Sequence record: OR786310.1
Strand: one strand, 5' to 3'
DNA: 64,000 nucleotides
Source of the DNA: Escherichia phage ETEC-TG
The first letter of the stretch is position 1. The number at the start of each line of letters is the position of its first letter. The position numbers are program-made. Below, in pieces: positions 39,001 through 42,000 of this stretch.

Positions 39001-42000
39001 GTAGTAATTTCCATTCCTTCCTCCTCAAATTATTAACGAAACCGCATGACTAAATCTTGGTTCAGATATAACCTCTGCTACAGTCACATATGTATCGTGC
39101 AGCCAAAAAGATTCTACTCTACAAACACAAATACCGTTGATAATGAAATCTACACAGGCTTTATTATTTTCGCACACTTGTTGACTATAAACAACCCCTA
39201 AAGAGTCATAAAGTGATCTCACTGTTGCTACCATTTCATCTGTTTCGTCTTCCTGTGAAACAAAGAAAACGAATACAGACAAGTTATTAGCGAAAGTATT
39301 GCTATTCTCTACTTCAACCGACTTACAAGGTAAAAAGGAGTAATATTTACCGTTAGGTATCAATTTCGCCTCAACCTGGTTAAGTATGCTTTGAGATGGT
39401 TTTGTTACATAAAAAAGATTTTCTGTTGGGTTTTCAACATTACTCCTTACTATGCAACGAGTGGGGTTCGAAGGATCAAAAACATGATCGAAATCGACAC
39501 ACACAGGTAAGTTAACAACTTTAAACTTTTTGCTAAGAATGCTTACTGCTGTAAAAATCAAACCAGCATTTATTTTGCCAGTGAAAGTTGAACGCATAAC
39601 TACTCCTCGGATCATTCTACCAAAGAGAATTCCGCCTCTTCCAGGTAGATTACAGACCTTGTTGCATGATATTTAACGCTCCAGAAATTACCTTCGCGCC
39701 GTAAAAGTATCTCATTCACATCAAGATTGCTTAGAAAAACCATATAACTTAAAGCTTGTTGACGCGTTGAGAATTGTTTCTCTAAAAGTTCTTCTCCGCT
39801 CTGCATAATCCCTCCTTAAAATACTCCCTCCGAAAAGGGAGTATAAGTATATCACGTAGTTGTTATGTTGTCTTCTTGGATACTAGAATCCACTTCTGCA
39901 AACATATCTTCTGCACTGTAATTATTTCCAGTCCAGCGTGATAAAAGGATAGCACCAATCTCTTTTGCATGAGATTCGGACTCCGCATAAACGTTAGTCC
40001 CAGTGTCACCTTTTTTCTTTTCATGTGCATAAATGCAGTAATAATTGTAAGCCATTAATCTTCCCAGTCATTGCCCTCGGTAGAGTGAACTAAAGCTCGC
40101 ACGATACCACCGTAATCTACTGCCTGATTTGCAGCATGTTCGGCATAAACTTCAATGGCTTTTTTGAAGAAAAGAGCAGTAGCTGCTTCAATATTATCCA
40201 TTTCACCATCTACGTCAGTAGAAAGTGAAAGGTTGAGGCTTTCATCTACTTCATCAAAATCAATAGCCACTGTCATAATTAGTTTACCCATAGTTCACAC
40301 TCCTTAAACAAAATAAAATGGTTGAGAGAGGCCCAAACGATTCTTTGGGTCGTATACATACCAAGCGTATGCTGTCTTATCTGTTCCACCTGCAACAAAC
40401 GAAGGCCGTTCTGAAAGGACTATAAGGTTTGTTGGTGGATTCTTTTGATGGAACTCTCGTCGTTTCTTTGACTCCAAGAAGCCCAACCGAAGAAGATAAA
40501 TACAAACATCCGCCTCTTTTAAGCTCTTTTCCAAGAACTCCATTGCTAACTTAAATGGAGGGTTTGTGATTATAATGTCGGGACGATTTTCCCATTCATG
40601 ACTAAAATAATCTTTACCTTCTTCAAGTTCGCAATATTCTGAACCTTCAGGAAAATGGCGATAAATCGCTTCAGCTTCACCTCTGCAAGGTTCTGCAAAA
40701 ACCCAACCTTCTTCCTTTAGATTTTTGAAATCTATAACACTAAACAAACTATTGATTGCTTTTTGCGGTGTCGGATAATAATCGCTCGTTGGGCGATCAT
40801 AATCTAATGCCATCTAAAATCTCCTCTTTTGTAATATTATCCAACTCTTTAAAAGATGAAATCTCGTTTAATAATCCTATTTGATCAGCCTCTAGAGGAT
40901 AAGTGTTTTTATCTGTTTTTCTAGACAGAATATCTTCAACAAACTTATCAATAGCCAAAGAAGAATCATAAAATTTTAAAAGTTGGTAATCCATAGGAGA
41001 TATTTTATCATCTCTTAGAAATATTTCTAACATGTTTTCAGGAGTATCGTGGTTTAGTTTATGTTCACCAAAAATATTAACTTCGTAAACATCTTTGCCA
41101 AACCAACGTTTTTTCTTTTCAACAGTATAGGTTTTTGCCACCAGACCATCTAAACAGTTTCTTGCCCTCTTACATGTTTGACGGTAAGAGTGGATAGCGC
41201 CTTCAACAAACTTAGCAGGAACTTGTAACATTATTAATCTCCTATGTTTAAGAAATGCCCCCGAAGGGGCAGTTTGTTAAATAGCGGTTTCTTCGAAATC
41301 CGCCACATTTACGAGATTAATATTTTCAGATTTAGAAGTCAAGTTGTTTTCTGCAACAGATTTTTCTTCAGTATCCGCCTCGTTACCTGCCACGTTACGA
41401 GGTTCTTCTTCACCGTAGGGATTACCGAATTTCAAAAGATTGATTAATTCTTCTTTGGAGAAGTTTTCTAAATCATCATCTGTTAATTCAATAATCTCAT
41501 CTTGTTCTTCAATAAATGTTTCACCACCAGAAAAAGCATCTCGCTTTTTAGCTACTTCCATAGCCTGTTCTGGTGTTGCTCCTGCATCAAGAGCAGCTAA
41601 AGCAAAGTCTGACCCGCTTCCTACCGCATAATATTCTTCATCAATCGGATATGCACGTGTTGGGTTGTTACCTTCGTGCAGGAAAATACGTCCGTCTGGA
41701 TGAACAACAAGTGCAATAAACTCTTCATCTTCTTTATCTGGATCAGAGTGAATCATCAAACCAGGGACAGCATCACGTGCTGCTTCGCACTGTAGATTTT
41801 GTTCAAACCATTGAAAGAAAGAAAGCACGGAGGTCAGACGACCAGCACCACCTACAAGGTAATCTCCAATTTTTCGGACCTTTTTGAAATTAATAGAATC
41901 TACACGTCCACCAAAAGTTACCTTACCGTCACTCAAAATCTTATTTTTGGTCGCAATAATTGTCGTCACTATTCTTCCTCCTCTGTTAATGTTTTAAGAA

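What the first reader, a model, noticed from the sequence alone, without database searches (positions are those of the whole stretch)
41277..41969. HslV/proteasome-like peptidase with a long acidic C-terminal extension
The N-terminus MTTIIATKN places a Thr right after the initiator Met, as in Ntn-hydrolase HslV/proteasome beta subunits, and the length matches HslV plus an extra ~50-residue acidic tail. A phage-encoded HslV-like protease could hijack the host HslU unfoldase or degrade defence proteins.
Basis: partly seen in the sequence, partly recalled or inferred. Interest (0 to 1): 0.45.

Follow-up and report, generated by a model that had tools for sequence, protein, structure and literature searches.

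The report
Phage proteasome-like threonine peptidase, acidic tail
This is a real gene of a phAPEC8-like E. coli phage for a small proteasome/HslV-type protease with an acidic tail; databases already annotate it, its function has never been tested, and it does not look built to use the host HslU motor.

Summary
Window 41277-41969 (- strand) is a 230-aa ORF starting GTG-Thr-Thr (MTTIIATKN). It has a strong Shine-Dalgarno site and no room for a propeptide.

It belongs to the proteasome/HslV superfamily. It passes Pfam PF00227, matches phrog_1040 at E 4.5e-63, and its AlphaFold model matches HslV, 20S beta and BPH structures. The catalytic residues T2, D14, K30, the G40/G43 glycines, G117-S118-G119 and D144 are conserved.

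It is not a true HslV. It scores 31-32 bits against NCBIfam HslV cut-offs of 137 and 158. No second apical helix is predicted. The phage has no hslU. Its nearest untailed relatives are 130-160-aa phage proteins that fit the PPH family of Fuchs, Alva and Lupas (2021).

The 72-residue extension has two parts: a conserved two-helix motif (SKEELINLLKF) and a variable acidic stretch.

The window is a Phapecoctavirus. The same gene, at 99% identity or more, is already labelled "peptidase HslV family" in dozens of genomes.

Most likely it is a stand-alone N-terminal-threonine peptidase that needs no ATPase. The HslU-hijack idea is unsupported. Interest is low to moderate.

The parts
41277..41969 (-). 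CDS for the 230-aa proteasome-like (PPH/HslV-type) N-terminal-threonine peptidase. Start GTG at 41967-41969, stop TAA at 41277-41279.
   Evidence: ORF list and sequence. Pfam PF00227 25.6 bits against a 22.4 cut-off. phrog_1040 E 4.5e-63. PDB sequence hits to HslV. Fold match.
41977..41983 (-). Shine-Dalgarno site GAGGAGG, 7 nt upstream of the GTG start.
   Evidence: Read directly from the sequence.
41496..41969 (-). Catalytic core, residues 1-158. Key residues are T2 (nucleophile once Met is removed), D14, K30, G40/G43, G117-S118-G119, and R143-D144-x-x-S147-G148-G149.
   Evidence: Invariant or near-invariant columns in alignments A1, A2 and A4. AlphaFold2 pLDDT about 90-98 outside the 61-80 segment. 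Foldseek matches to HslV, 20S beta and BPH.
41721..41768 (-). Residues 68-83 (VPGLMIHSDPDKEDEE). This acidic, Pro/Gly-containing loop occupies the place of HslV helix H2 and the pore segment. D81 and E82 are near-invariant and align with HslV L88/R89.
   Evidence: DSSP coil with pLDDT 67-79 in the model. Alignment to E. coli HslV. Conservation. PPH/RPC are described as lacking H2 (PMC8665760).
41418..41495 (-). Residues 159-184, the conserved post-core module. It has an acidic linker, then two short helices (LTDDDLENF, SKEELINLLKFG). Family consensus: L-T-x-E-x4-[ML]-[ST]-K-E-[EQ]-[IL]-[IL]-x2-[IL]-F-[GP].
   Evidence: Helices 164-169 and 172-181 with block-mean pLDDT 84-88. The motif is present in most of 52 representative clusters of the tailed subfamily, and the shortest tailed members end right after it.
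41280..41417 (-). Residues 185-230, the variable, predicted-disordered acidic tail.
   Evidence: pLDDT about 43-50. No sequence conservation among homologues. Net negative charge is nonetheless kept in 51 of 53 representative clusters, median -14.
41256..41271 (-). Terminator-like GC hairpin (TGCCCC-TTCG-GGGGCA, then TTTCTTAAAC), 5 nt after the stop codon.
   Evidence: Consensus scan. This is a pattern match only.
42034..42063 (-). Sigma-70-like promoter match (TTGACA, 18 nt, TAGAAT; 11 of 12). It lies inside the 3' end of the upstream ORF, and its -10 hexamer ends 64 nt upstream of the GTG.
   Evidence: Consensus scan. This is a pattern match only.
41969..42472 (-). Upstream 167-aa ORF (phrog_14834, unknown function) whose stop overlaps the peptidase start (TAGTG). 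It is a possible partner, but that is not shown.
   Evidence: ORF list. PHROG hit. Contig lengths repeat between the homologue tables of the two proteins (142327, 155979, 154027, 86576, 58036, 11607, 34988), down to about 62% identity of the peptidase, and the same gene order is seen in Justusliebigvirus. Not proteasome-like by hhalign. Confident all-helical model with no PDB fold match.

Best explanation
The gene encodes a phage proteasome-like N-terminal-threonine peptidase. It belongs to a C-terminally extended branch of the compact 'group I' proteasome homologues found in phages, and it fits the PPH/RPC description of Fuchs, Alva and Lupas (2021).

**Shown here.**
- The proteasome-beta/HslV fold.
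- A full set of conserved catalytic positions.
- No propeptide.
- No phage hslU.
- A conserved two-helix motif after the core, followed by a variable acidic tail.

**Inferred mechanism.**
- Host methionine aminopeptidase removes Met1, because Thr at position 2 allows it. Thr2 then becomes the free N-terminal nucleophile, assisted by D14 and K30. The G40/G43 glycines and the S118, D144 and S147 positions would play the supporting roles known from proteasome beta subunits.
- The protein probably assembles into a ring or double ring. Its interior would be lined by the conserved acidic D81/E82 loop.
- It would work without an AAA+ unfoldase, as proposed for BPH. It would cleave peptides or unfolded, probably basic, proteins during the early-to-middle phase of infection.
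- The conserved helices most likely stabilise the oligomer (like helix H5 of the proteasome and Anbu) or act as a docking site. The acidic tail, and the extra C-terminal domains in some relatives, would project outwards and recruit or gate substrates.
For: **Family and fold.**
- Pfam PF00227 above its gathering score.
- phrog_1040 'peptidase HslV family' at E 4.5e-63.
- PDB sequence hits only to HslV, 20S beta and BPH.
- AlphaFold2 model with mean pLDDT 82 and core above 90.
- Foldseek: HslV 1m4y at E 1.6e-10 with TM 0.70 normalised to the target, then 20S beta and BPH.

**Catalytic set.**
- M1, T2, T3, I4, D14, K30, G43, G117, S118, G119 and D144 are invariant.
- G40, G41, D81, E82 and G148 are conserved in 90% or more of sequences.
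- T2, D14, K30 and the GSG motif align with E. coli HslV T1, D17, K33 and G123-S124-G125.

**Not HslV proper; closer to short phage homologues.**
- NCBIfam HslV equivalogs score 31-32 bits against cut-offs of 137 and 157.75.
- The core scores 41-70 bits to 139-148-aa phage proteins but 28 bits to E. coli HslV.
- In the exhaustive search, roughly the best 55 listed clusters are mostly 180-350 aa and mostly align through query residue about 180. Below them come mainly clusters of about 130-200 aa that match only the core.
- No second helix is predicted after H1. Fuchs et al. report the same for PPH/RPC.

**No dedicated ATPase.**
- No hslU or Clp-type ATPase appears in the annotated parts of the near-identical genome that were read, covering all but about 21.5 kb of its 149 kb.
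- A tblastn search with E. coli HslU finds jumbo Erwinia and Salmonella phages, not the roughly 100 phapecoctavirus-type records.
- Distant family members sit alone among small early genes.

**Tail.**
- The motif is conserved across clusters down to roughly 30-40% identity.
- Tail acidity is conserved in 51 of 53 clusters.

**Analogy.** BPH has a long acidic pore loop and apparently no unfoldase (PMC8665760).

**Not the head protease.** A separate prohead protease (Pfam Peptidase_S78_2) sits in the head module, so this gene is not the head-maturation protease.
Against: - There are no biochemical data for this protein or for any PPH-type protein in the literature searched.
- Only a monomer could be modelled, so ring formation, stoichiometry and the position of the tail helices relative to the core are all unknown.
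- The 61-80 segment has only moderate confidence (pLDDT 67-79), so 'no H2' is a prediction.
- Fuchs et al. warn that some of the new homologues may not form classical rings.
- Isolated proteasome-type subunits are usually inactive, so an activating partner may still be needed.
- All known hosts of this family are Proteobacteria, which carry HslU, so host distribution does not exclude use of HslU.
Confidence: 0.6

Rival explanations
1. The protein is a functional HslV replacement that docks onto the host HslU hexamer and redirects ATP-dependent degradation to targets useful to the phage.
For: - HslV is the closest solved structure and the closest named family.
- The hydrophobic H1 positions of the HslU-tail pocket have similar residues (HslV F54/F57 against phage L49/F52).
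- All hosts of the family are Proteobacteria, which have HslUV by general knowledge.
- In this phage, the tail segment DDDLENF loosely resembles the HslU C-terminus DEDLSRF(IL).
Against: - It fails the HslV equivalog models by more than 100 bits.
- The H2 segment, which supplies A79 and K80 of the HslU-tail pocket (PMC6429459), is predicted to be a Pro/Gly-rich acidic loop.
- Q114 has no counterpart in the alignment.
- HslV K28 aligns with Ser25. That K28 is the residue contacting the HslU carboxylate is from my own recollection.
- Conserved D81/E82 replace the pore residues L88/R89.
- The DDDLENF resemblance is not conserved in the family, where the consensus is T-[RK]-E-x-[AL]-E-x-[ML]. It is also internal, whereas the activating peptides tested in PMC6429459 are C-terminal HslU segments written with a free carboxyl end.
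- Phages that do use an HslU-type ATPase encode their own (jumbo Erwinia and Salmonella phages).
Confidence: 0.12
2. The protein is an Ntn enzyme but not a degradative protease. It could be a sequence-specific ligase or transpeptidase like connectase, a single-site processing enzyme for one phage or host protein, or an amidohydrolase acting on a small molecule.
For: - The proteasome-like family includes the monomeric ligase connectase, and several new homologues may not form rings (PMC8665760).
- Only a monomer model exists.
- The variable C-terminal domains in relatives could be specific recognition modules.
Against: - The two-helix S3/S4 insertion that is the signature of connectase is absent.
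- The protein retains the H1 helix and the H3/H4 pair, whereas connectase lacks the first helix pair.
- The closest relatives by sequence and fold are degradative peptidases.
Confidence: 0.1
3. The C-terminal extension has no role in substrate handling. The conserved helices are only an H5-like clamp for ring or double-ring assembly, and the acidic tail is a solubility 'bristle' under weak selection.
For: - Minimal tailed members (183-188 aa) stop right after the helix motif.
- The sequence and length beyond the motif are highly variable.
- H5 helices stabilise the rings of the proteasome and Anbu.
- The phage proteome is mildly acidic overall, with a median of +0.036 net negative charges per residue. 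This protein ranks 8th of 92 ORFs, so it is not unique.
Against: - Net negative charge in the tail is kept in 51 of 53 clusters despite sequence turnover.
- Many relatives carry long C-terminal extensions of 100-190 residues. Some include Cys-rich segments, which suggests added function.
Confidence: 0.2

Closest known systems
[quoted passage not shown]
   Same: - Compact 'group I' proteasome homologue.
- Phage-encoded, with no propeptide.
- Conserved Thr/Asp/Lys triad.
- No second helix H2 predicted.
- A C-terminal extension, as in RPC.
- The nearest untailed relatives are 130-160-aa phage proteins.
   Different: - PPH is described as about 140 residues, whereas this protein has a 158-residue core plus a 72-residue extension.
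- RPC is reported only from Proteobacteria, not from phages.
- The conserved SKEELLxxLF helix motif and the conserved tail acidity are not mentioned in that paper.
HslV (ClpQ), the peptidase of the bacterial HslUV protease
   Same: - N-terminal Thr directly after Met.
- D17, K33 and GSG equivalents.
- Same fold, and the best PDB match.
- Compact, with no C-terminal S12/H5 element in the core.
   Different: - 28% identity in the alignment to E. coli HslV.
- Fails the NCBIfam equivalog cut-offs.
- The H2/pore segment is replaced by an acidic loop.
- The H3-H4 connection is 9 residues shorter.
- It has the RDxxSGG motif typical of 20S beta subunits, where E. coli HslV has LDIAGDI.
- No hslU partner gene.
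- It carries a C-terminal extension.
BPH (beta-proteobacterial proteasome homologue, PDB 5ovs)
   Same: - Group I homologue with an acidic pore-lining loop.
- No known unfoldase.
- Significant fold match at E about 7e-10.
   Different: - BPH is a bacterial tetradecamer with both helices H1 and H2.
- The structural match is weaker (TM 0.54-0.55).
- BPH has no acidic C-terminal tail of this kind.
HslU-like plus proteasome-fold gene pairs of jumbo Erwinia and Salmonella phages
   Same: Phage-encoded proteasome-fold proteins (BFVD hits, for example Erwinia phage Special G).
   Different: Those phages carry their own HslU-like ATPase. The Phapecoctavirus lineage does not.

Membership tests
Proteasome-like Ntn-hydrolase superfamily (Pfam PF00227; MEROPS T1 type) | The sequence matches the family model above the curated threshold. 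| tested here: met
   PF00227 at 25.6 bits against a gathering score of 22.4. phrog_1040 at E 4.5e-63.
Proteasome-like Ntn-hydrolase superfamily (Pfam PF00227; MEROPS T1 type) | Alpha-beta-beta-alpha sandwich fold of proteasome beta subunits. | tested here: met
   AlphaFold2 core pLDDT above 90. Foldseek probability 1.00 to HslV, 20S beta and BPH, with 819 PDB chains at E<=1e-3.
Proteasome-like Ntn-hydrolase superfamily (Pfam PF00227; MEROPS T1 type) | N-terminal Thr nucleophile with the Asp17/Lys33 triad and the Gly/Ser support positions. | tested here: met
   T2, D14, K30, G43, G117-S118-G119 and D144 are invariant and align with the HslV catalytic residues. Exposure of Thr by Met removal is inferred, not shown.
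HslV proper (partner of HslU) | Scores above the NCBIfam equivalog cut-offs (NF003964, TIGR03692). | tested here: not met
   32.2 and 31.4 bits against cut-offs of 137 and 157.75.
HslV proper (partner of HslU) | HslU C-tail pocket built from helices H1 and H2 (F54, F57, A79, K80, Q114 in E. coli and H. influenzae HslV, per PMC6429459). | tested here: not met
   Only the H1 positions have similar residues (L49, F52). The H2 segment is predicted to be coil with P69/G70/P77. Q114 has no counterpart. This rests on a monomer model and a sequence alignment.
HslV proper (partner of HslU) | Encoded next to, or together with, an hslU gene. | tested here: not met
   No hslU-like gene in the annotated parts of the near-identical genome that were read. 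An HslU tblastn search does not pick up the roughly 100 phapecoctavirus-type records.
HslV proper (partner of HslU) | Dodecamer of two hexameric rings, activated by HslU. | not testable with these tools
   Only monomer prediction was available. This needs SEC-MALS or EM and activity assays.
PPH (Fuchs et al. 2021) | Lacks helix H2. | tested here: met
   The model has one helix (45-67) followed by coil at 68-83. Confidence is moderate (pLDDT 67-79).
PPH (Fuchs et al. 2021) | Occurs in tailed phages (and in prophage regions of their hosts). | tested here: met
   235 phage records carry a homologue. The window is 99.8% identical to Phapecoctavirus genomes. The GTDB scan found only a 425-bp contaminant contig.
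PPH (Fuchs et al. 2021) | About 140 residues, with no extra domains. | tested here: not met
   230 aa: a core of about 158 plus a 72-residue extension.
PPH (Fuchs et al. 2021) | Clusters with the PPH reference sequences (for example WP_042125023.1) in the CLANS map. | tested here: inconclusive
   The reference sequences were not retrievable. As a proxy, the closest untailed relatives are 130-160-aa phage proteins.
RPC (Fuchs et al. 2021) | PPH-related core with a C-terminal extension or domain of unknown structure. | tested here: met
   An extension is present, and Pfam finds nothing in the tails of five family members.
RPC (Fuchs et al. 2021) | Found only in proteobacterial genomes; sequence clusters with WP_140207863. 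| tested here: inconclusive
   This subfamily is phage-borne and essentially absent from bacterial species representatives.

The most novel reading that the evidence does not exclude
The tailed subfamily may be a modular, ATP-independent 'targeted degrader'. In this reading, the conserved SKEELLxxLF helix pair docks onto the ring surface in cis or onto a neighbouring subunit, at the site where HslU tails bind HslV. This would hold the peptidase in an active, open state. The acidic tail, or in relatives the Cys-rich and other C-terminal domains, would capture specific basic host proteins and feed them into an acidic chamber. Candidate targets are nucleoid proteins or defence proteins. That would be a new way of activating and targeting a proteasome-type protease without an unfoldase.
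Probability: 0.12. Interest if true: 0.7.

Novelty: already known. Interest (0 to 1): 0.3.

Why it matters
Phage proteasome homologues are widespread. Here they appear in 235 phage records, in 45 viral structure clusters, and in 2332 sequence clusters at E<=1e-3, a count that probably also takes in bacterial HslV-type proteins. Yet no experiment on any of them was found in the literature searched.

Learning what a stand-alone threonine peptidase does during infection would fill a real gap. Possible roles include amino-acid recycling, removal of host nucleoid or defence proteins, and processing of phage proteins.

The E. coli Phapecoctavirus copy is an easy model. The host is tractable, delta-hslU and delta-hslV strains exist, and the gene is small.

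As a genome-scan finding, though, it mostly re-discovers an existing annotation. The additions made here are three:
- It is not a true HslV and is unlikely to use HslU.
- It belongs to a tailed branch close to PPH.
- The extension contains a conserved two-helix motif followed by a tail whose acidity, but not sequence, is conserved.

Tried and rejected
1. **Head-maturation protease.** Rejected. The head module has its own Peptidase_S78_2 (XkdF-like) gene, and this gene lies among early and middle nucleotide-metabolism genes.

2. **Phage AAA ATPase gp074 of phage anhysbys as a dedicated unfoldase.** This is a weak classic-AAA hit (PF00004, 29.9 bits). Its family is spread over phages of Enterococcus, Bacillus, Staphylococcus and Lactococcus. 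None of these host genera appears among those named for the peptidase, and Vibrio, Caulobacter and Rhizobium phages, which carry the peptidase, are not among the ATPase's top genera. It is also about 43 kb away. Not supported.

3. **Functional link to PhoH.** PhoH lies 0-3 genes upstream in Stephanstirmvirinae, Shewanella phage 1/4 and Vibrio phage 10AMN. It is not nearby in Caulobacter, Rhizobium or Vibrio PG11/F88 phages. It also appears to be not adjacent in Alteromonas phage V22 (CDS-113 against CDS-146 in the paper's gene table). This looks like lineage synteny, not a conserved pair.

4. **Upstream 167-aa ORF as a degenerate proteasome subunit.** hhalign probability 0.6%, an all-helical model and no PDB fold match. 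Its function stays unknown.

5. **Tail as a known domain (SAP/HeH/Rho_N-like by eye).** Pfam finds nothing in five tails even at E<=10, nor in whole long homologues.

6. **Tail segment DDDLENF as a mimic of the HslU C-terminus.** It is not conserved in the family and it is internal. Kept only as part of the low-probability novel reading.

7. **Bacterial copies or operon partners.** The first attempt with the broad alignment failed. The second scan found only a 425-bp contaminant contig.

8. **The afdb50 fold library** was unavailable.

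Full report
**What is there.** Window 41277-41969 (minus strand) holds a 693-nt ORF of 230 codons whose product starts MTTIIATKN.
- The start is GTG. A GAGGAGG Shine-Dalgarno site lies 7 nt upstream. The GTG overlaps the TAG stop of the preceding ORF by one base (TAGTG).
- An in-frame TAA lies nine codons upstream with no ATG, GTG or TTG in between. There is therefore no propeptide, and Thr2 follows the initiator Met directly.
- M1-T2-T3-I4 is invariant in 32 homologues. Nearly all full-length representative clusters start MT[TS].
The folded core is about 158 residues, shorter than the 176-aa E. coli HslV. The extension is about 72 residues (net charge -14, 26% Asp+Glu), not about 50.

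**Where the window comes from.** The region 40000-44000 is 99.5-99.8% identical to about 60 genomes of phAPEC8-like E. coli myoviruses (Phapecoctavirus, Stephanstirmvirinae).
- In RefSeq and several GenBank records the same gene is already labelled 'peptidase HslV family', 'HslV family peptidase', 'ATP-dependent protease subunit' or 'putative proteasome component'.
- It lies in a long leftward block of early and middle genes. The order is RNR, dTDP-sugar enzymes, glutaredoxin, lysozyme, PhoH-like ATPase, a 167-aa unknown, this gene, a 144-aa unknown, then a DNA methyltransferase.
- A terminator-like hairpin follows the stop codon. An 11-of-12 sigma-70 match lies about 64 nt upstream of the start, inside the upstream ORF. 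Both are pattern matches only.

**Fold and catalytic apparatus.**
- Pfam PF00227 (Proteasome) is above its gathering score, and phrog_1040 matches at E 4.5e-63.
- The only PDB sequence hits are HslV, 20S beta subunits and BPH.
- An AlphaFold2 model built on a 32-sequence alignment has mean pLDDT 82, with the core above 90. It matches T. maritima HslV (E 1.6e-10, TM 0.70 normalised to the target), other HslVs, archaeal and eukaryotic 20S beta subunits, and BPH.
- Invariant columns are T2, D14, K30, G43, G117-S118-G119 and D144. Near-invariant ones include G40, G41, D81, E82 and G148.
- Against E. coli HslV these align with T1, D17, K33, G45/G48 and G123-S124-G125.
- The motif R143-D144-A-F-S147-G-G resembles the RDxxSGG (D166/S169) motif of 20S beta subunits more than the LDIAGDI of E. 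coli HslV. That comparison rests on my knowledge of proteasome motifs.

**It is not a bona fide HslV.**
- The two NCBIfam HslV equivalog models give 32 and 31 bits against cut-offs of 137 and 158.
- The core scores 41-70 bits to 139-148-aa phage proteins from Rhizobium, Caulobacter and Vibrio phages and from metagenomes. It scores only 28 bits to E. coli HslV.
- An exhaustive search of 1.84 billion cluster representatives gave 2332 clusters at E<=1e-3. Roughly the best 55 listed are mostly 180-350 aa and mostly align through query residue about 180. Below them come mainly clusters of about 130-200 aa that match only the core.
- The model has a single helix (45-67) after the first sheet. The next segment, residues 68-83 (VPGLMIHSDPDKEDEE, with P69, G70 and P77), is coil at moderate confidence.
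- Fuchs, Alva and Lupas (2021, PMC8665760) describe exactly this. [quoted passage not shown] - I could not obtain their reference sequences. I therefore assign the protein to a tailed branch next to PPH/RPC by features, not by clustering.

**The HslU question.**
- HslU tails insert into pockets between HslV subunits. These pockets are lined by F54 and F57 (H1), A79 and K80 (H2) and Q114 (PMC6429459).
- In the phage protein only the H1 positions are similar (L49, F52). The H2 segment is a non-helical acidic loop, and Q114 has no counterpart.
- The near-invariant D81/E82 fall where HslV has the pore residues L88/R89. This gives a predicted acidic pore. BPH has a similar acidic pore loop and apparently works without an unfoldase.
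- No hslU-like gene was found in the parts of the near-identical genome of phage anhysbys that were read, which cover all but about 21.5 kb of its 149 kb.
- A tblastn search with E. coli HslU finds jumbo Erwinia and Salmonella phages, but not the roughly 100 phapecoctavirus-type records.
- A divergent AAA ATPase in the phage (gp074) belongs to a family with a quite different phage distribution.
- Distant family members stand alone among small early genes.
- Use of host HslU is therefore not excluded, but nothing found here supports it.

**Anatomy of the extension.** Alignment of 52 representative clusters shows three elements after the last core strand.
- First comes an acidic linker (EE.E).
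- Second comes a conserved two-helix unit, L-T-x-E-x4-[ML]-[ST]-K-E-[EQ]-[IL]-[IL]-x2-[IL]-F-[GP]. Here it is LTDDDLENFSKEELINLLKFG, residues 162-183, with helices 164-169 and 172-181 at pLDDT 84-88.
- Third comes a region variable in length and sequence. The shortest tailed members (183-188 aa) end right after the motif. Others add 100-190 residues, including Cys-rich segments.
- Pfam recognises nothing in these tails.
- Net negative charge is kept in 51 of 53 tails (median -14, 25% Asp+Glu) and in all 53 cores.
- Within this window the protein ranks 8th of 92 ORFs for negative charge per residue and 2nd for total charge. It is acidic but not unique.

**Most likely mechanism (inferred).**
- Met1 is removed by host methionine aminopeptidase, which accepts Thr at the next position. 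This is established enzymology. Thr then acts as an N-terminal nucleophile.
- The subunits form a ring-type particle with an acidic interior. The particle degrades peptides or unfolded, probably basic, proteins without an ATPase.
- The conserved helices either clamp the oligomer, like H5 in proteasomes and Anbu, or serve as a docking site.
- The acidic tail and extra domains face outwards, as Fuchs et al. suggest for C-terminal extensions, and may recruit or gate substrates.
- I put 0.6 on this composite. I put 0.12 on HslU dependence, 0.1 on a non-degradative Ntn activity, and 0.2 on the tail being purely structural.

**Literature.** Six full-text searches found only annotation-level mentions of this gene type in phages (for example PMC12210895 and PMC7289586) and the 2021 bioinformatic survey. 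They found no biochemical or genetic study of PPH-type proteins.

**Verdict.**
- Databases already annotate it, and it belongs to a described family of phage proteasome homologues.
- The HslU-hijack and anti-defence ideas are unsupported.
- The modest new points are the failed HslV membership, the placement beside PPH/RPC, and the conserved helix motif plus conserved acidity of the extension.
- Interest 0.3. Novelty: already known, or at most an undescribed tailed variant of a known kind.

Noticed in passing
window 41969-42472 (-): This 167-aa ORF (phrog_14834, unknown function) has its stop overlapping the peptidase start (TAGTG). The AlphaFold2 model is very confident (pLDDT 91.8) and all-helical, yet has no significant PDB fold match (best E 0.26). 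It may be a new fold or a partner of the peptidase.
   Followed up: partly
L012:2932-3483 and L012:3501-4385 (Aeromonas phage 4L372D, MK813939.1): Two proteasome-like genes sit in tandem. A 183-aa paralogue starts MTCIIALRD and has GCG in place of GSG (hhalign probability 72%, E 3.4e-5 against the family alignment). It lies directly upstream of the 294-aa tailed homologue. This could mean a two-subunit particle.
   Followed up: partly
L006:18030-18509 (phage anhysbys NC_052656.1, JR321_gp266): The gene after the portal gene is annotated 'DNA methyltransferase', but it matches Pfam Peptidase_S78_2 (XkdF-like prohead protease) at E 1.4e-11. It is probably mis-annotated and is the real head-maturation protease.
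   Followed up: partly
L005:39443-40582 (phage anhysbys gp074; just outside the window): A divergent classic-clade AAA ATPase of 379 aa (PF00004 29.9 bits, phrog_2376, weak PDB hits to Rix7, Cdc48 and VAT). Its family occurs in many large phages of Enterococcus, Bacillus, Staphylococcus and Lactococcus. Function unknown.
   Followed up: partly
one search hit H43 and protein P0066 (Escherichia phage VEcB, MT932211.1): In VEcB the peptidase match covers only residues 63-221. The deposited 267-aa protein carries a PhoH domain (PF02562). This suggests a deletion or fusion that joins PhoH to the C-terminal part of the peptidase and removes the catalytic Thr.
   Followed up: no
L013 (JAPMLR010000072.1, 'Lysobacteraceae bacterium JHOS43', 425-bp contig): The only hit in 185,579 bacterial species representatives is a 425-bp contig that is 100% identical to this phage gene. 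It is almost certainly phage contamination of that assembly.
   Followed up: no
one search hits H75-H90; (BFVD A0A191ZBV1 and others): Jumbo Erwinia and Salmonella phages (for example Special G, Ea35-70, SPAsTU) encode HslU-like ATPases. Erwinia jumbo phages such as Special G also have proteasome-fold proteins in BFVD. Genuine phage HslUV-like pairs may therefore exist in a different lineage.
   Followed up: no
proteins P0061-P0063 (324-379 aa metagenomic homologues): P0061-P0063 have C-terminal extensions of about 170-220 residues containing Cys pairs (for example CGKCG and CKFCG). All five long homologues (P0061-P0064, P0068) share a Trp-containing terminal segment (...W[KR]L...). There is no Pfam match for any of this.
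   Followed up: partly
window 39025-39615 (-): A 196-aa ORF matches phrog_4806, labelled 'histidyl tRNA synthetase'. It is far too short for a HisRS and has no supporting Pfam hit. A paralogue is annotated elsewhere in the genome (anhysbys gp046). The label is probably misleading.
   Followed up: no
window 32007-32492 (-): The most acidic ORF of the window: 161 aa with net charge -28. Function not examined.
   Followed up: no
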